This document shows positions 27,966-34,171 of a stretch of DNA of 64,000 bases, in pieces. Both the position numbers and the translations under genes were made by a program. The stretch is taken from the NCBI RefSeq assembly GCF_024502345.1, contig NZ_JALDNN010000001.1; one strand, written 5' to 3'. Positions within the stretch are counted from its first letter, which is position 1. Each line of letters begins with the position of its first letter. Origin of the DNA: Escherichia coli. GTDB lineage: Bacteria > Pseudomonadota > Gammaproteobacteria > Enterobacterales > Enterobacteriaceae. A model generated the notes under the pieces. It ran no database searches and was not told the DNA's origin. It saw only the letters and a program-made list of their open reading frames with translations.

Positions 27966-27975
27966 GAGTGCCGAA

Positions 27976-28009
27976 GCGTTGCGTTAATCAAAACGCAACG
28001 TCTTCTTTT
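27976..28009. terminator. hairpin between convergent rsmI and yraK (likely bidirectional terminator)
   Basis: gcgttgcgttaatcaaaacgcaacg inverted repeat followed by T-rich run. Confidence 0.5.
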
Positions 28010-29099
28010 ACCGCACGATGACGGTAATGGTGGCGGTGCCCTGAAATTTTCCTGTTTCCAGCTCACCACCGACCAGATTAACTGGCCAGGCGCGCATGTT
28101 GATGGTGCCATGCCCGGAAGGATCAACGGGAAGGATACCGTTCTGAAAAGGAATATTTGCAACTCCGCCGCCGAGATTTTCAATACGAATACCGACATCG
28201 GGCGCATTGTCTGAACTTCTTCGTCTGGCGACCAGGTTGTACTGGTCTACTACCCCAGTTGTACCGTCGATGCGCATTTGCAACGAGTTTTTAATCTTTG
28301 AAGTATCACCACAGTCATAAGTGATATCAAAGTCTACTGGAGTAAAACCGTCTGGCATGGCATTGCGGGTGGTAAACTTCTGACCATTGATGAATCCAAA
28401 ATTAACCTTAATAACATCGCCCTGATTAATTTTGCACGACTGTGGGGCGGTGAGATTTCCCTGAATCGATAACTTGACTAAATCATGGAAGTCACCTGTA
28501 GACGGGCTTCCCATTCCATCGACCCATGCGCCTTTAATGACGGCAATATCCGTTTTCGGAATGGTCATCGAGCCGAGAAATGGCTTGGTGACATACAGGG
28601 TAAAGGTGGTATTTGCACCAATATTAACGGGTCCATAACGAGACGTGTCACCCTGGCAAACACCCGTTTGAGTTGCAGCAGAATATACGGTGTTGCTTTT
28701 TATCTGTGTGAATCGGGTGTTAACAGAAACGGTCTGGTCAGTCACGAGTCCTGGAATGTCATTCGCCTGTAATGTGGTTTTAATATCCAGACTATCATTG
28801 AGTTTGTAATATCCTGCTTGATGTCCAGTGGTGGTAAGTACAGGGCTGACCATATAGACAAGTTTAACTGCCTTACCCGCAGAGCAGGTACAGGCGTATT
28901 GCCAGTTAGTGCTACTTAGCGTGGCAGAGGTAAACTCCCGTCCTGTCACGTTATCTGTCTGGTTCACCGTAACATCATCAACCACACTGCTGTAATTTGT
29001 CGCACCGCTAGTGCTGTCAGCTCCACACCCTCCTGAGGAGGCATAAGCGCAGGATGTGGATATCAACAAAAGTCCTGTTATAAGAGGCGCTCTTTTCAT
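28008..29099 (-). CDS. yraK: fimbrial adhesin-like protein
   Basis: ORF trimmed to signal-peptide start MKRAPLITGLLLISTSCAYA (363 aa); last gene of yraHIJK chaperone-usher operon. Confidence 0.8.
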   Translation of the reverse strand: MKRAPLITGLLLISTSCAYASSGGCGADSTSGATNYSSVVDDVTVNQTDNVTGREFTSATLSSTNWQYACTCSAGKAVKLVYMVSPVLTTTGHQAGYYKLNDSLDIKTTLQANDIPGLVTDQTVSVNTRFTQIKSNTVYSAATQTGVCQGDTSRYGPVNIGANTTFTLYVTKPFLGSMTIPKTDIAVIKGAWVDGMGSPSTGDFHDLVKLSIQGNLTAPQSCKINQGDVIKVNFGFINGQKFTTRNAMPDGFTPVDFDITYDCGDTSKIKNSLQMRIDGTTGVVDQYNLVARRRSSDNAPDVGIRIENLGGGVANIPFQNGILPVDPSGHGTINMRAWPVNLVGGELETGKFQGTATITVIVR

Positions 29100-29109
29100 T
29101 TTTTTATCC

Positions 29110-31626
29110 TTAATGGCACTGCGCCGTGCCTTGTAATACAGAGGTTGTTGGTTCTGAATCCGGTGTACTAAAAGCAAACTGACATTGTTGATCTGCCTGA
29201 TTTCCCCAGCGTACAGTCCAGCTTTGTGATTTACTCGATATCCCAGAGAGATATAGTATGCCGCCCTCATCGACGATACTTTGTTGCCCCGTCTCATCGT
29301 TGCTGGCAAGAGCGCCAAAGGGCAACGGTTTACCGTTGCGATCGCTGACTGTAACAAGTACGCGATAACCGATATTGGCGTTGAAACGCGCCGCTACCAT
29401 TGCACCTCTGTTGGGCACCACAAACTGTGTTGTTTGCTCAAGATCGACGTTATCGGGCAGCTGCGTAGTATCTACCGAGAGACGGTTTTCCTGGTAAGTC
29501 GTGAGATAAGGAACCACTGCATAGCCAAAGGGATCAGTAGCAATCCCCGGATAGTTTTGTATCCTCACGCCAGAAGCCCCATTAGCATCGATAAGCGCAA
29601 AAGCGTTGCCCAGATATTGCGAGAGCGTCACGCCATGAGGATGGATAACCACGCCGCCGGTAACGCCGTAATTGTATTGGCTGCTGTCATTACCGTAACT
29701 GTATCCGGCACTGAAGGTGCCATAAGGTGAACGGTAACTGGCGTTCAGGCTACTGTTATGGTTGTTATCGTCATCCAGACTTTGTTCCAGGCTATAGCTC
29801 AGGCGACCATCATCCAGCAGTGAGCCATCAAGACGCATTTCATGTTGGGTTGGGCGATCTTTCTGGCTGGTCATCTGATAGGAAACCCGGCTACGCGGTA
29901 ACCAGCGTTCTAACGGAATACTGAGATTCAAAGAGAGTGCGCGGTCATTATTTTGATCCGTGTAGCGACTGTATTGATAATTCAGGCTGTAACCAATTCC
30001 CCATTGCTGGCCGGAAACCCCAACTGAGATATTCCTGTTTTTATCGTTATTGCCCCAATAGTCTTGCTGCGAACCGGAGGCATACAGACTTACCCCATCA
30101 AATATTGTCTGGCTGATGTTGAATTGAATTTCACTTTTTTGGCGACTGTTATAGTCCCAATTGCGGGTATTGGCTTCATCAAAACTAAAATAGCCATCGT
30201 TGGTATAGCGATAGTAGCTAACAGCGATATTGGTGTTGGTTTCCGGGATATCTTTGATGTACTGCGTACGCCATTGATAGCCATGAAAAGAGTGCTGGTT
30301 ATCGAATTGGGTGTCAGCTCTGTTGATATCCATCGACAACGCGCCCAGTGCGCCAAGTGTGCCGCCGATACCGATCCCCAGCGCATAATAATCTTCAGAA
30401 CCGAGCAGGCCGCCATACAGCGTAAAAGTATTATTCAAACCATATATTGCCGTGGCTTCAGCAAATTCGGGTTCCTTGCTATCACTGTTTGCATCAGCGC
30501 GATAGCGTCCAGCGGTCGCGCTATATTTTAGATGCCCAGGTCGCTGCATCATGGGTAATGAAGAATAAGGCTGGATAAAGCGACGTTGTGTACCGTCACT
30601 TTCTTCAATCGTGACTTCTAAATCGCCGCTGTTGGAAGAGGGGTAGAGATCGTTAATTTCAAAGGCACCCGCTGGCACGTTGCTTTGATAGATCACATAA
30701 CCATTTTGCCTGATAGTCACGATTGCACTACTGTTTGCGATACCGCGTACCGTTGGGGCAAATCCGCGCTGGCTGTTTGGCAACATATTATCGTCGGAAG
30801 CGAGTTGCACGCCAGTAAAGGTGTAGCTGGAAAAAATACTGCCGCTGGTGGCGCTTTCTCCCAGAAGCAACTGAGACTTCAACGCCTTGATATCACGTTG
30901 TAAATAACTACTGATAGTGTTCCAGCTTGACGCCTGATCGTTGCGTGTCCACGTAGAATAGTTACGTAATCGCCAGGGGCCAAAATTAGCACCATTTTGC
31001 ATATTCAGGTACTGTCGTTGGCTACGATTGCCCTGGCGGTAACGGTTATTAGAACCTGTAAACGAGTAGTTGGTAAACAGCGTTGGTATACCATCGTCCC
31101 AACGAGAAGGGGAGACGTAACCTCTTGCATCACGGTACAGTGCAATTTGGGGAATGCTCAAATTAAGTCGCTGATGATTGAAATCAAATTCAGCAGCTGT
31201 ACCGGGAATGATTTGTTCAAGCGAGTTGATCACGCTATCGTCATCTTTTTCAGCCAGCGCCGGGATTTCATCCACCTTAATACCCAGCTCACGTAGTTGT
31301 TCTACCGTAAACTGTGGCTGCAGAAGTTGCTCTGCATTGGCGGTAAATGTAATTTTTTTCTGTGAAACCTTCTTTTTATTCAGCCAGATATCAACCTGAT
31401 AAGTTCCTGGTAGTTGTGCGTATTTTTTTGAAAAACGTGACAGATCAGTTGTTTGCATACCACTTTTTGTAGTTTCCAGCATAATGGGGTCGAAATAATA
31501 CTCTTCGGCGTTAGCGGTAGTGCAAAGCATGCCGCTGCCAGTGAGCACCATCGGCAAACAGCGTTTGATGATGAGCGCCAACTGTTTCGGTGTGCGTTTA
31601 TGTCCCTGGTGGTGTCGTTGTGGCAT
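29110..31626 (-). CDS. yraJ: fimbrial outer-membrane usher
   Basis: 838-aa ORF recognised as YraJ, usher family. Confidence 0.9.
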   Translation of the reverse strand: MPQRHHQGHKRTPKQLALIIKRCLPMVLTGSGMLCTTANAEEYYFDPIMLETTKSGMQTTDLSRFSKKYAQLPGTYQVDIWLNKKKVSQKKITFTANAEQLLQPQFTVEQLRELGIKVDEIPALAEKDDDSVINSLEQIIPGTAAEFDFNHQRLNLSIPQIALYRDARGYVSPSRWDDGIPTLFTNYSFTGSNNRYRQGNRSQRQYLNMQNGANFGPWRLRNYSTWTRNDQASSWNTISSYLQRDIKALKSQLLLGESATSGSIFSSYTFTGVQLASDDNMLPNSQRGFAPTVRGIANSSAIVTIRQNGYVIYQSNVPAGAFEINDLYPSSNSGDLEVTIEESDGTQRRFIQPYSSLPMMQRPGHLKYSATAGRYRADANSDSKEPEFAEATAIYGLNNTFTLYGGLLGSEDYYALGIGIGGTLGALGALSMDINRADTQFDNQHSFHGYQWRTQYIKDIPETNTNIAVSYYRYTNDGYFSFDEANTRNWDYNSRQKSEIQFNISQTIFDGVSLYASGSQQDYWGNNDKNRNISVGVSGQQWGIGYSLNYQYSRYTDQNNDRALSLNLSIPLERWLPRSRVSYQMTSQKDRPTQHEMRLDGSLLDDGRLSYSLEQSLDDDNNHNSSLNASYRSPYGTFSAGYSYGNDSSQYNYGVTGGVVIHPHGVTLSQYLGNAFALIDANGASGVRIQNYPGIATDPFGYAVVPYLTTYQENRLSVDTTQLPDNVDLEQTTQFVVPNRGAMVAARFNANIGYRVLVTVSDRNGKPLPFGALASNDETGQQSIVDEGGILYLSGISSKSQSWTVRWGNQADQQCQFAFSTPDSEPTTSVLQGTAQCH

Positions 31627-31655
31627 TCCCTGATGACCTGTGTTTTTTATATTTG

Positions 31656-32351
31656 TTATTGCAGTGGACGAGTTTCTGTCCTGGAACTGCCGCCATAATC
31701 ATTGATTGCAGCCCATTTCACGTTCTTTCCGCCAGATGCAGGAAGTGGTAACTGTTTATGTTCTCCGGGCGCGATATATTCAATTTTGCTTGTGAGATCG
31801 GTTTTATCGACTGCCAGTCCGGCAAATACGACGTAATATTCAGTTGGGTTATATATATTGAGTGAATGGTCACTACGTTTAAATTCCAGTGATGTCCACG
31901 CATCGTTTACCCGTCCCTTCAGGTGTGCGGGGCGATAAAACATTTTGATCCGTGTTTTAAATACCAGCGTCAACTCGTTAGCATTAACATCATCTGATTT
32001 TTTCTTTGCTGGAATGGCACGAACATTAATGTAGAACAGCGACTCTTTATTTTCAGGCAGGTTATCAGCTGTTTTAATAATTCGCAGTGATGAGTCATCG
32101 CCAGCTTCAAGACGAAATAGCGGTGGGGTTATAATAAATGGGGCACGGCTTGTACCATCTATATTATCTACCCATGATTGCAGTAAATAAGGCGTTTCTG
32201 CGCCTTTGTTTGCGACAGGTAACGCAGCCTCTTTGCGGCTGGCATCATAGATCACTCGCGTTCGCTGTAAAACGATACCCCCTGCAAGCGCCTGGCCGAT
32301 ACAGAAGCTACACAACAAGGTTATTATCACCGCGAATGTTCGTTTTGACAT
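31656..32351 (-). CDS. yraI: periplasmic fimbrial chaperone (PapD-like)
   Basis: 231-aa ORF with signal peptide; recognised as YraI. Confidence 0.9.
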
Positions 32352-32430
32352 AGTTATTTTTCAACCTGATACAACGAGAAAGAGGAAGGAAAAGGGCGTT
32401 ATCTGAAAGGTCAGATAACGCCGTAACGTA

Positions 32431-33015
32431 TTAACGGTAATCCAGCGTTACGTTAACGACAGCGTCTGCTTCCCCTGGGGTGATTTCTGATGCTTCAACG
32501 GTTGATACGTAGTAAGCGATGAGGTCAACATTGACAATACCATTGGAGTCCGCTGGGATCTGATAAACCGTGTTATCATTCCCCATAGCATTCAGTGGCA
32601 TAAGGTTTCCGCTTTCCGCATCGTCAATACGGATACCCACACCTGTTGCCGCTGTGCCAGCAAAAGAGCCCACTTTTGCCAGATTAGGGAAGTTAGGGAC
32701 GGTGCCATTATCCCGCGTTTCCAGCCATAAACGGAAAGACGCTTCAACGTTGCCGTTATCGTGCTCCCACCCAGTCACTGGGCAGTTAACTAAAGGAATA
32801 GTGAATGGAATTTTTGGGCTACGATCGCCAACAGAACGAAACTGTTCGGCATTATAGTGACCAAGAGCAACTTCAATTTTCTTATCAGAGTCATTGATTT
32901 CACAAGCGGATTTTAAAATCTCGCCATCAAAAACTATTTCACCATCGGTTGCAGCGGCATTACCTGCGAAAAGCGCAAGTAAGCCCACAATAGCTGTTTT
33001 TGTAACTTTATTCAT
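32431..33015 (-). CDS. yraH: fimbrial major subunit-like protein
   Basis: 194-aa ORF with signal peptide; first gene of yra operon. Confidence 0.85.
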   Translation of the reverse strand: MNKVTKTAIVGLLALFAGNAAATDGEIVFDGEILKSACEINDSDKKIEVALGHYNAEQFRSVGDRSPKIPFTIPLVNCPVTGWEHDNGNVEASFRLWLETRDNGTVPNFPNLAKVGSFAGTAATGVGIRIDDAESGNLMPLNAMGNDNTVYQIPADSNGIVNVDLIAYYVSTVEASEITPGEADAVVNVTLDYR

Positions 33016-33415
33016 TTATAACCTTATCCTTGTAACAAGTACATAATCATATTTAATGTGAATATATGTTCAACATCTTTAAAGATTATACAGGTAGAAA
33101 TATTTCATTGAACATTAAATAGACTAAACTTTAAGATTATATTTATATGCAAATATTTTATGTTTTTATTATATTGATATGAATTTTCTATGTGTTAAAA
33201 AGAGTATAAATGCCTGACTTTGCTGCGCCAGGGGCCGAGTCAGAATACGAGGTGATTTATTAATAGAACAAGTTATATGTATATCTAAAATTAAATTGTT
33301 GAACATAACTCCTTTTGCTATTGGCGTTATGTTCAACCCAGTCAAATGTTATTTAATATAATGCGTGACTGTTGAATAAGTTAATTTAAAAATTTTGAGC
33401 AAATTTTTCATCTGG

Positions 33416-34171
33416 TTAGGTATTAATTAAACAAATAAAGTTACTGTGCAGCCATAAAAACGAAGCCGGGATAGCGGTGGAGACTTTAGCCGTGAGAAAA
33501 CGTTCTGTCGCATCCTGCTTTCCTTCGCCAGTCACCAATAACAAAACCTCGCGGGCATTGAGAATATCCTTCAGGCCTAAGGTGATCCCACGAGTCACGG
33601 GGCGACCCGTGGTTTTTAACATCTCATGTTGCTGTGTTCTGGCATCAAGTTGACTGATATGGCAGGCCGGTTGTAGGCTTTCTCCCGGTTCGTTCAGCCC
33701 AAGATGACCGTTTTTCCCCAACCCGAGAACGCATAAATCCAGACCGCCTTTGCGCGCAATCAGGTTCGTTACCCGTTCGCACTCTGTCTCATTTATCTCT
33801 TCGGAGCGAAAGCTGATGAGCTGGTCTTCACGCAGCCCCAGCGGCTGCACGATATGCTGTTGTAGGAAAGTTTCGCAGGTGCCAGGCATCGTTAATGGCA
33901 GATCCACCCATTCGTCGAGCTTCACGAAGGTGAGCTGGCTGATATCAACCTGCTGCTGGTGGATTTTTTCTACCAGATAATGATACGTCAGTAATGGCGT
34001 GGCTCCGGTCGCCAGGCAAATCACGGCATCCGGTTTGCTACGGATCACAGCCAATAAATATTCGCTGGCTCGTTCACTTAACGCCGTATAGTTTTCAACT
34101 TGCTGAAGGGTTTGCACAGGATGAAATTCCTTAAGTAAAGAGGCACCGCCAGAAGCAGTGCCTCGTTCCAT
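33416..34171 (-). CDS. agaI: galactosamine-6-phosphate deaminase/isomerase-like protein
   Basis: 251-aa NagB-family ORF; position at end of aga cluster. Confidence 0.85.
   Translation of the reverse strand: MERGTASGGASLLKEFHPVQTLQQVENYTALSERASEYLLAVIRSKPDAVICLATGATPLLTYHYLVEKIHQQQVDISQLTFVKLDEWVDLPLTMPGTCETFLQQHIVQPLGLREDQLISFRSEEINETECERVTNLIARKGGLDLCVLGLGKNGHLGLNEPGESLQPACHISQLDARTQQHEMLKTTGRPVTRGITLGLKDILNAREVLLLVTGEGKQDATERFLTAKVSTAIPASFLWLHSNFICLINT

What the first reader, a model, noticed from the sequence alone, without database searches (positions are those of the whole stretch)
33016..33415. Repeated ATGTTCAAC motif in the long AT-rich region upstream of the cryptic yraHIJK fimbrial operon
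The 400-bp region upstream of yraH is extremely AT-rich, as expected for a silenced chaperone-usher operon. It contains ATGTTCAAC on the plus strand at 33066 and 33329, and its reverse complement GTTGAACAT at 33298, with a near-copy TTGAACAT at 33108. Four copies of a 9-mer may mark binding sites for a regulator rather than chance, though AT-richness inflates the chance expectation.
Basis: seen in the sequence. Interest (0 to 1): 0.3.

Follow-up and report, generated by a model that had tools for sequence, protein, structure and literature searches.

The report
Repeated 9-mer is mostly one hairpin
The repeated ATGTTCAAC motif between agaI and the silent yraH fimbrial operon is real, but two of its four copies are the arms of one conserved stem-loop just after agaI and the other two flank the likely yraH promoter, so it is an ordinary gene-boundary feature and not a new regulator's binding motif.

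Summary
All four motif positions are correct. agaI, the 400-bp spacer (26% GC) and yraHIJK lie on the minus strand.

The excess over chance is modest. Any 9-mer reaches 3 copies in 11.6% of local shuffles, and any 10-mer in 1.8%.

The copies at 33298 and 33329 are the two arms of one 15-bp inverted repeat (33298-33337). On the agaI sense strand it folds at -18 kcal/mol (z about -5), 79 nt after the agaI stop, with a U-rich tail. Three divergent syntenic loci keep this hairpin through compensatory changes and different loops. In one of them it sits about 900 nt from the fimbrial gene. yra-like operons not adjacent to agaI lack it.

Copies 1 and 4 lie at about +3..+13 and at the -35 position of a conserved TATAAT. 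They are invariant within E. coli but decay in the divergent relatives. The motif is absent upstream of the other K-12 fimbrial operons examined.

Best reading: a terminator-like 3' stem-loop of the aga transcript, plus two promoter-proximal look-alikes inside a published H-NS-bound "promoter island". The hairpin is not a canonical intrinsic terminator, and K-12 Term-seq lists no 3' end there. Low interest.

The parts
33416..34171 (-). agaI (galactosamine-6-phosphate isomerase), last gene of the aga operon. Its stop codon borders the spacer.
   Evidence: ORF list; RefSeq annotation of identical or near-identical E. coli records.
33016..33415 (-). The 400-bp agaI-yraH spacer, 26% GC, single copy per genome. 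It is the published H-NS-bound 'promoter island' (MG1655 3287026-3287425).
   Evidence: PMC3661553 and PMC3946193.
33298..33337 (-). Conserved hairpin. Its arms are 33298-33312 and 33323-33337 (14 of 15 complementary, 10-nt loop). These arms contain motif copies 2 and 3. The hairpin lies 79-118 nt after the agaI stop.
   Evidence: Inverted repeat I2. Fold of -18.1 kcal/mol, z -5.8. Kept in L017, L022 and L023 with 89% of cells paired and 3 pairs changed on both sides.
33285..33297 (-). U-rich tail after the hairpin on the sense strand (AAUUUAAUUUUAG). In the relatives it reads (U)GUUUAAUUUAU(U)AG, followed by a conserved block AGATAAACACGTTAC.
   Evidence: The opposite strand has no such tail.
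33370..33387 (.). Degenerate fifth copy (TGTTGAATAAGTTAATTT). It is an imperfect complement of 33288-33305, so the hairpin can extend into a longer imperfect one.
   Evidence: Inverted repeat I1, 83% over 18 nt. Rfam hairpin-type chance hits span 33284-33358 on both strands.
33213..33245 (-). Second, G+C-rich stem-loop (CUGACU...AGUCAG / CCUGGC...GUCAGG) followed by CAUUUAUACUCUUUUU. It is terminator-like but lineage-specific.
   Evidence: The only terminator-like hit of the scan. It is weakened in the O157, ETEC1731, SM107 and EC45 haplotypes and absent in L017 and L022.
33130..33150 (-). Conserved block ATATAAATATAATCTTAAA. It contains a TATAAT and is shared by yra-like operons even in other genomic contexts.
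   Evidence: Alignment A4: present in 7 of 8 loci.
33105..33121 (.). Motif copy 4 (TTGAACAT at 33108-33115) with its extension. On the sense strand it reads TATTTAATGTTCAATGA and occupies the -35 position (GTTCAA-17-TATAAT) of the conserved -10.
   Evidence: I5. Invariant within E. coli. Reads AATGTTtAAc in L017 and is lost in L022 and L023.
33085..33090 (-). TATAAT hexamer (TGTATAAT at 33092 down to 33085), the inferred -10 of a yraH promoter. No experimental start site was found.
   Evidence: Invariant in the window, K-12, L017 and L022, and GGTATAAT in L023. The promoter role is inference.
33066..33076 (.). Motif copy 1, a perfect 11-bp palindrome ATGTT-C-AACAT. It lies at about +3..+13 of the inferred promoter. 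Its TTGAAC is also the -35 of a second promoter-like site (TTGAAC-16-TATGAT).
   Evidence: Invariant within E. coli. Reads ATGcTGAACAT in L017, ATGTTaCCcAc in L022 and tTGTTGAAaAg in L023.
32431..33015 (-). yraH, the first gene (a fimbrial-subunit gene) of the yraHIJK chaperone-usher operon.

Best explanation
The 'four copies' are two unrelated things that share an 8-11-nt core.

(1) Copies 2 and 3 are the arms of one conserved stem-loop in the 3' flank of agaI. I infer that it forms in the aga operon transcript as its terminator-like or 3'-protective hairpin. It would mark the boundary between the sugar-inducible aga operon and the H-NS-silenced yra operon.

(2) Copies 1 and 4 lie around the likely yraH core promoter. 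Copy 4 is at the -35 position and copy 1 is just downstream of the start, relative to a conserved TATAAT. Their resemblance to the hairpin arms is most likely a coincidence of AT-rich, promoter-like sequence (TTGAAC resembles the -35 consensus TTGACA). It does not look like the signature of a shared regulator.

Shown: the inverted repeat, its fold, its conservation with compensatory changes, its linkage to agaI, the absence of the motif at other fimbrial operons, and the conserved TATAAT.

Inferred: that the hairpin acts at the RNA level and ends or stabilises the aga transcript, and that the TATAAT is the working -10 element.
For: - Copies 2 and 3 form a 15-bp inverted repeat, 14 of 15 complementary.
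- Sense-strand fold is -18.1 kcal/mol, z -4.8 to -5.8.
- It is the strongest hairpin in the spacer (-19.2 kcal/mol in K-12) and sits just after the upstream gene. The same is true of the best hairpins after gltA, yehE, sixA, ubiK and gltD in other fimbrial spacers.
- Divergent syntenic loci keep a hairpin at the same place: L017 (YraH 87% identical), L022 (54%) and L023 (53%). They differ in upper stem and loop. Across 16 pairs, 89% of cells are paired versus 29-40% in slid controls, and 3 pairs changed on both sides.
- In L023 the hairpin is about 90 nt after agaI but about 900 nt from the fimbrial gene.
- yra-like operons beside other genes have no hairpin and no motif.
- A U-rich tail is present only on the agaI sense strand and is conserved.
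- L017 keeps pairing through two G.U wobbles that would be C.A mismatches on the other strand: -9.6 versus -7.1 kcal/mol.
- In strains without yra, agaI is followed by a different, G+C-rich terminator shared with rsmI. yra-carrying strains therefore need another 3' element.
- TGTATAAT is invariant in window, K-12, L017 and L022, while copies 1 and 4 drift.
- The motif is absent from 13 other K-12 fimbrial upstream regions.
Against: - The hairpin is not a canonical intrinsic terminator. The stem is A+U-rich, two A residues separate it from an interrupted U-tract, and the terminator scan did not call it.
- K-12 Term-seq tables list 3' ends at 3286304 and 3287795 but none at the hairpin, 3287104-3287160 (PMC7815308 supplement). 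aga is barely transcribed under those conditions, so this is only weak evidence.
- Only four independent lineages support the covariation. Perfect inverted repeats can also be maintained by template-switch mutation without selection.
- The recurrence of a hairpin 10-mer elsewhere in the spacer has P of about 0.02, so calling copies 1 and 4 a coincidence is not fully comfortable.
- They are invariant in E. coli, although zero changes in about 43 motif positions is expected 14% of the time by my own calculation.
- No transcription start site data were found.
Confidence: 0.55

Rival explanations
1. Regulator-binding sites: a dimeric transcription factor recognises the palindrome ATGTT-S-AACAT. 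It would bind at copy 1 (overlapping the transcript start, as a repressor), at copy 4 (-35 region) and at the two upstream copies, perhaps looping the DNA.
For: - Copy 1 is a perfect 11-bp palindrome, and 33296-33306 matches it at 10 of 11 positions.
- All copies are invariant in five E. coli haplotypes.
- The repeat count is nominally above chance.
- Copies 1 and 4 bracket a conserved TATAAT about 40 bp apart.
- The hairpin core spacing differs by exactly 10 bp between L022 and the window.
Against: - No such motif occurs upstream of the other K-12 fimbrial operons examined, nor upstream of yra-like operons elsewhere.
- Copies 1 and 4 are not kept in L022 or L023.
- The upstream pair keeps base-pairing in its variable upper stem, which a protein-site model does not explain.
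- The 11-mer palindrome is imperfect at three of the four sites, and with up to 2 mismatches it is not enriched in the window: 26 observed versus 18 expected.
- The papers read report no factor binding this spacer. The GalR in-silico site is inside yraH, and the BolA effect is global.
Confidence: 0.12
2. Pure chance in AT-rich DNA: all the repeats, including the inverted repeat, are by-products of low-complexity composition and have no function.
For: 11.6% of composition-matched shuffles carry some 9-mer three times. The region was selected by eye from 64 kb. Conservation within E. coli is not significant, since 18 variable sites in 400 bp predict only about 2 changes in the motif positions.
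Against: - The hairpin folds far better than shuffles, with 0-1 of 200 as good.
- It is retained with compensatory changes in loci whose surrounding spacer has diverged beyond easy alignment.
- A 10-mer in three copies occurs in only 1.8% of shuffles.
- None of 13 comparable spacers shows such a repeat.
Confidence: 0.15
3. RNA-level coupling: the shared core allows alternative pairings in a read-through aga-yra transcript. For example, the 3' arm UAUGUUCAACA could pair with copy 1 UGUUGAACAUA (11 nt, perfect). Hairpin formation or melting would then control yraH expression in an attenuator-like way.
For: There is an exact 11-nt complementarity between 33297-33307 and 33065-33075 (I4). The elements are ordered X, X', X', X on the sense strand. 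An upstream segment at 33370-33387 can compete for the 3' arm (I1).
Against: - The promoter-proximal pairing has no energetic signal, z -0.5.
- The whole spacer folds only marginally better than shuffles, z -1.7.
- Copy 1 and copy 4 are not conserved where the hairpin is.
- In L023 the hairpin is about 900 nt from the promoter.
Confidence: 0.05
4. DNA-level element: the inverted repeat is a cruciform, a recombination site or a relic of a mobile element, marking the edge of the exchangeable fimbrial cassette between agaI and rsmI.
For: - The hairpin lies about 110-150 bp inside the left end of the segment (window 27971-33446) that is missing in strains without yra.
- Different fimbrial cassettes at this site share the hairpin and the roughly 45 nt after it, but little else of the spacer.
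- Most stems are equally stable on both strands.
Against: - It is single copy in 3374 E. coli genomes, with no second place and no plasmid copies.
- No transposase or integrase lies nearby.
- The breakpoint is inside agaI, which fits homologous replacement rather than site-specific insertion.
- Metagenome hits to the core outside E. coli are unrelated sequence families.
Confidence: 0.08

Closest known systems
Intrinsic (Rho-independent) terminators, and the 3' stem-loops that define stable mRNA ends after Rho-dependent termination
   Same: A stem-loop immediately downstream of the last gene of an operon, on the sense strand, followed by a U-rich stretch. It is the strongest local fold in the spacer, like the hairpins after gltA, yehE, sixA and gltD in other fimbrial spacers. 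Each lineage has a C-rich, G-poor patch 40-60 nt downstream, compatible with Rho loading (a weak hint).
   Different: The stem is A+U-rich (3 G-C pairs in the lower 12). The U-tract is interrupted and offset by AA. The consensus scan does not call it. No 3' end is listed there in K-12 Term-seq.
H-NS-bound 'promoter islands' next to horizontally acquired genes (Panyukov and Ozoline 2013)
   Same: This very spacer is listed as agaI/yraH, 3285165_325, bound by H-NS. It is AT-rich and carries several overlapping promoter-like hexamers, including TTGAAC-16-TATGAT built on motif copy 1.
   Different: The listed island starts at about the end of the hairpin (my estimate from the offset between genome versions). 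The hairpin is therefore a separate feature at the island's edge. The simple promoter scan is not enriched over shuffles here, 3 versus 3.3.
Palindromic operators of dimeric repressors, e.g. DeoR-family sites such as the GlpR half-site WATGTTCGWT or DeoR TGTTAGAA/TTCTAACA (recalled from memory, not tested)
   Same: Copy 1 is a perfect short palindrome overlapping the inferred transcript start. TATGTTCAAC resembles the GlpR half-site at 8 of 10 positions. The neighbouring aga operon is controlled by a DeoR-family repressor, AgaR.
   Different: The second half-site at the spacing those proteins need is missing. The published AgaR consensus, as I recall it, is unrelated. There is no conservation in divergent loci and no recurrence at other operons.

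Membership tests
Intrinsic terminator | G+C-rich stem of 5-14 bp with a short loop | tested here: inconclusive
   A 12+2 bp stem at -18 kcal/mol is present. However, it is A+U-rich with a 10-nt loop, and the scan's criteria (at least 3 G-C pairs, loop 3-8) did not report it.
Intrinsic terminator | Uninterrupted U-tract starting 0-2 nt after the stem | tested here: not met
   The tail is AAUUUAAUUUUAG. In the relatives it is (C)UGUUUAAUUUAU. It is U-rich but interrupted.
Intrinsic terminator | Sense orientation just downstream of a stop codon | tested here: met
   The hairpin lies 79 nt after the agaI stop in the window, about 45 nt after it in L022, and about 90 nt after it in L017 and L023.
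Intrinsic terminator | Mapped RNA 3' end at the U-tract | tested here: inconclusive
   The Term-seq tables of PMC7815308 held as text list no 3' end at 32871xx. aga is barely expressed, and an upstream 3' end at 3286304 already stops most transcripts.
Transcription-factor regulon motif | Recurs upstream of other co-regulated (fimbrial) operons | tested here: not met
   Zero 9-mer hits and one 7-mer core hit in 13 other K-12 fimbrial upstream regions.
Transcription-factor regulon motif | Sites conserved in orthologous promoters of diverged relatives | tested here: not met
   The sites are invariant within E. coli. In the relatives, copy 1 carries 1, 4 and 4 changes and copy 4 is lost in L022 and L023. 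yra-like operons elsewhere lack the motif.
Transcription-factor regulon motif | Fixed half-site spacing and orientation | tested here: not met
   The core-to-core gap is 18, 18, 20 and 8 nt in the upstream pair and 34 nt, with opposite polarity, in the downstream pair.
Transcription-factor regulon motif | Match to a known factor's matrix or to binding data | not testable with these tools
   No motif library is available. The literature search found only a GalR in-silico site inside yraH and a global BolA effect.
H-NS-bound promoter island | AT-rich spacer next to horizontally acquired genes, listed as H-NS bound | tested here: met
   The spacer is 26% GC. The yra segment is present in 3374 of 5426 genomes and is absent or replaced in the others. 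It is listed in PMC3661553 Table 1 and PMC3946193.
Dispersed repeat (REP, ERIC, MITE) | Many copies per genome | tested here: not met
   One place per genome in 3374 genomes, a maximum of 2, and none on plasmids.
Rfam RNA family | Score at or above a family's gathering threshold | tested here: not met
   The best hit is a generic hairpin match to MIR405, 21.8 bits against a threshold of 102.

The most novel reading that the evidence does not exclude
The shared core is functional. One factor, or an RNA-RNA interaction, would link the 3' hairpin of the GalNAc/galactosamine (aga) operon with the yraH core promoter. Sugar-dependent transcription of aga would then gate expression of an otherwise cryptic fimbria, through the X, X', X', X arrangement of TTGAACAT and ATGTTCAA elements.
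Probability: 0.07. Interest if true: 0.5.

Novelty: new member of a known kind. Interest (0 to 1): 0.15.

Why it matters
The practical value is small. This work gives a concrete boundary element between a sugar-utilisation operon and a silenced fimbrial operon, and it nominates a conserved TATAAT and a conserved upstream block as the places to look for yra regulation. It also shows that a repeated-word signal in AT-rich DNA can simply be the two arms of a hairpin. If the hairpin does stop aga transcription, it would help explain why yra stays silent even when aga is induced.

Tried and rejected
- **Rfam scan of the spacer:** only chance hairpin hits.
- **Genome-collection scan with YraH:** only a 45%-identical Ewingella locus and a probable contaminant contig.
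- **'Divergent' YraH proteins P0017 and P0020:** these proved to be assemblies of C-to-T converted reads and were discarded.
- **Metagenome scan anchored outside the stem:** 0 hits.
- **Metagenome scan on the stem core:** more than 120 hits, of which only 6 are the E. coli locus. The rest are unrelated families.
- **Small ORF 33169-33345 (58 aa):** rejected, because other haplotypes carry a premature stop.
- **Promoter-proximal inverted repeat as an RNA structure:** rejected, z -0.5.
- **Start-site and 3'-end data in supplements:** nothing held, or nothing at the site.
- **Literature search for 'agaI terminator':** swamped by the word 'again'.
- **Known operator consensuses recalled from memory** (GlpR, DeoR, MntR, OmpR, ArcA, CRP, Fnr, Zur): none fits in both sequence and spacing. 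These were not tested with a tool.
- **Dam/GATC phase-variation sites:** I saw no GATC in the spacer on reading the sequence.

Full report
**Observation.** Every motif position is as stated. ATGTTCAAC is at 33066(+) and 33329(+), GTTGAACAT is at 33298, and TTGAACAT is at 33108. These are the only exact copies in the 64-kb window. All the genes here are on the minus strand: agaI at 33416-34171, then a 400-bp spacer of 26% GC, then yraH at 32431-33015, yraI and yraJ. The real repeat unit is slightly longer than reported: the 10-mer TATGTTCAAC occurs three times.

**Chance.** In dinucleotide-preserving shuffles of the 400 bp, some 9-mer reaches three copies (either strand) in 11.6% of trials. Some 8-mer reaches four copies in 4.4%, and some 10-mer reaches three copies in 1.8%. 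As an empirical control, none of 13 other K-12 fimbrial upstream regions carries any 9- or 10-mer three times. The signal is therefore nominally unusual, but not strong for a region chosen by eye.

**Anatomy: two copies form one hairpin.**
- The copies at 33298 and 33329 are the arms of one inverted repeat, GTTGAACATAACtCC / GGcGTTATGTTCAAC. It is 14 of 15 complementary with a 10-nt loop (I2).
- On the sense strand of agaI it folds at -18.1 kcal/mol, z -4.8 to -5.8.
- It starts 79 nt after the agaI stop and is followed by AAUUUAAUUUUAG.
- Copy 1 (33066-33076) is itself a perfect palindrome, ATGTT-C-AACAT.
- Copy 4, read on the sense strand, is AATGTTCAATG.

**Comparative evidence.**
- The spacer is single copy and present in 3374 of 5426 complete E. 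coli genomes at 95% identity or more.
- In one genome examined that lacks yra (AR_0058), agaI abuts rsmI across a different, G+C-rich hairpin. The variable segment is window 27971-33446, with its left breakpoint inside agaI.
- Across five E. coli haplotypes all four copies are invariant while 18 other spacer positions vary. Only about two changes would be expected in the motif positions, so this is uninformative.
- Useful divergence came from three syntenic loci (agaI, spacer, yraH-like gene): L017 (YraH 87% identical), L022 (Escherichia sp. MOD1-EC7003, 54%) and L023-L025 (53%, with a 1047-nt spacer).
- All three keep a hairpin at the equivalent place with the core TTGAACATAA / TTATGTTCAA (one arm base differs in each of L017 and L023). 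The base pair at the foot differs (G-C versus A-U). The upper stems differ (C.GCC/GGA.G versus UUUCA/UGAAA, or none). The loops differ, giving a core-to-core gap of 18, 20, 8 and 18 nt.
- On the five-sequence alignment, 89% of cells in 16 pairs are paired against 29-40% for slid partners, and three pairs changed on both sides.
- L017 keeps pairing on the sense strand through two G.U wobbles, giving -9.6 versus -7.1 kcal/mol for the other strand.
- The hairpin and the roughly 45 nt after it are a conserved island in otherwise poorly alignable sequence.
- In L023 the hairpin is about 90 nt after agaI but about 900 nt from the fimbrial gene.
- yra-like operons next to other genes (L019-L021, L026, L027, L005) have neither the hairpin nor the motif.
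- The hairpin therefore goes with the agaI 3' flank, not with the fimbrial promoter.

**What the hairpin most likely is.** In other K-12 fimbrial spacers that follow a same-strand gene, the strongest local fold sits immediately after that gene: gltA/ybgD, yehE/yehD, sixA/yfcV, ubiK/ygiL and gltD/gltF. The agaI hairpin fits this pattern. I therefore read it as the terminator-like or 3'-protective stem-loop of the aga transcript. Caveats follow.
- It is A+U-rich, its U-tract is interrupted, and the consensus scan did not call it. The scan called only a second, G+C-rich and lineage-specific stem-loop at 33213-33245.
- K-12 Term-seq tables list 3' ends at 3286304(+) and 3287795(-) but none at the hairpin, which maps to 3287104-3287143.
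- aga is barely transcribed under those conditions, so this neither supports nor refutes the reading.
- A C-rich, G-poor patch 40-60 nt downstream in each lineage would allow Rho-dependent termination with trimming back to the hairpin. That is inference.

**The promoter-proximal copies.**
- TGTATAAT (33092 down to 33085) is invariant in the window, K-12, L017 and L022, and reads GGTATAAT in L023.
- If this is the -10 element, copy 4 occupies the -35 position (GTTCAA-17-TATAAT) and copy 1 spans about +3 to +13.
- Copy 1's TTGAAC also serves as the -35 of a second promoter-like site, TTGAAC-16-TATGAT.
- Copy 1 reads ATGcTGAACAT in L017, ATGTTaCCcAc in L022 and tTGTTGAAaAg in L023. Copy 4 is lost in L022 and L023.
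- The inverted repeat formed by copies 4 and 1 has no folding signal, z -0.5.
- A different block, ATATAAATATAATCTTAAA (33130-33150), is shared even by yra-like operons in other contexts. It is a better candidate for conserved control.

**Test of the regulator idea.** The motif is absent from the upstream regions of yadN, sfmA, ybgD, elfA, fimA, fimE, fimB, yehD, yehE, yfcV, ydeT, ygiL, gltF and yhcA, apart from a single 7-mer core hit at yadN. The palindrome with up to 2 mismatches is not enriched in the window, 26 observed against 18 expected. The literature offers no factor for this spacer. It is a listed H-NS-bound promoter island (PMC3661553) and an RpoD SELEX site with an H-NS mark (PMC3946193). 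BolA overexpression raises yraH along with many cryptic fimbrial genes (PMC4337573). A GalR in-silico site lies inside yraH (PMC5110547).

**Verdict.** The non-random core of the signal is an ordinary, previously unannotated stem-loop at the end of the aga operon, and the other two copies are probably look-alikes in promoter-like AT-rich DNA. Residual probability remains for a palindromic operator at copy 1 or for an RNA-level link between the two regions. Interest is low.

Noticed in passing
window 27971-33446; L003, L022, L023: The whole yraHIJK block, its 400-bp spacer and the last 31 nt of agaI form a presence/absence segment. In one yra-less genome examined (AR_0058, L003), agaI and rsmI are joined through a 93-nt G+C-rich hairpin region; about 1,850 of 5426 genomes match only the agaI part of the query. 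Rare genomes (2 of 5426) and Escherichia sp. MOD1-EC7003 carry a different yra-like operon (about 54% identical subunit) in the same slot. This may bear on the reported mutual exclusion of YraJ and UshC (PMC5717340), but I did not check whether the variant is ush.
   Followed up: partly
window 33130-33150 (minus strand): The block (G)AAATATAAATAnATTCTTAAAA, about 100-115 nt upstream of the start codon, is conserved in 7 of 8 yra-like operons, including those beside unrelated genes (alignment A4). It is a better candidate for a conserved promoter or regulatory element than ATGTTCAAC.
   Followed up: partly
L012-L016 (Logan assemblies SRR3359617, ERR3578265, SRR27475780, SRR27475582, SRR24798472): Apparent 66-71% identical YraH 'homologues' are artefacts. 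Their DNA differs from E. coli by 49-55 C-to-T changes and about 9 others, with no indels, so they are assemblies of bisulfite- or deaminase-converted reads. Such entries pollute the protein database.
   Followed up: yes
L004 (NZ_NIBV01000010.1, Xenorhabdus szentirmaii DSM 16338, 2233-bp contig): This contig encodes a 93%-identical YraH fragment. It is probably E. coli contamination of that assembly.
   Followed up: no
L002 and L009 (EcMAD1, EC45); window about 33076: An IS1 is inserted directly next to motif copy 1, with loss of yraH, yraI and the 5' part of yraJ. Both genomes have the same junction and the same IS1 transposase accession, so this is probably one event.
   Followed up: partly
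window about 34137 (MG1655 3286304, + strand there) and about 32646 (MG1655 3287795, - strand there): Published K-12 Term-seq lists a 3' end 34 nt into agaI, after a GAGGCAC...GTGCCTC hairpin that follows agaD. It also lists a strong 3' end antisense to yraH, with a score of 23751 (PMC7815308 supplement). The antisense RNA inside a silent fimbrial gene was not examined.
   Followed up: no
window 33213-33245: A G+C-rich island in the middle of the AT-rich spacer forms a terminator-like stem-loop followed by CAUUUAUACUCUUUUU. It is weakened by a G-to-T change in the O157, ETEC1731, SM107 and EC45 haplotypes and is absent from L017 and L022.
   Followed up: partly
L039, L053, L057, L059, L070, L071, L091, L112, L138, L139, L146 and others (metagenome contigs): Unrelated metagenomic contigs carry arrays of the form TTGAC-TTGAACATAA-T-TTGAACATAA-T-TTATGTTCAA. 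Several contigs have multiple copies about 264 bp apart. A separate termite-gut family reads CACTGCCGTGTGGGCCGTAGCATAT-TTGAACATAA-ACACTGC-TTATGTTCAA. These look like iteron- or operator-like repeats of unknown elements and have no link to E. coli.
   Followed up: no
L006 (E. coli O157:H7 E32511): agaI is annotated as a pseudogene with an internal stop in this O157:H7 genome.
   Followed up: no
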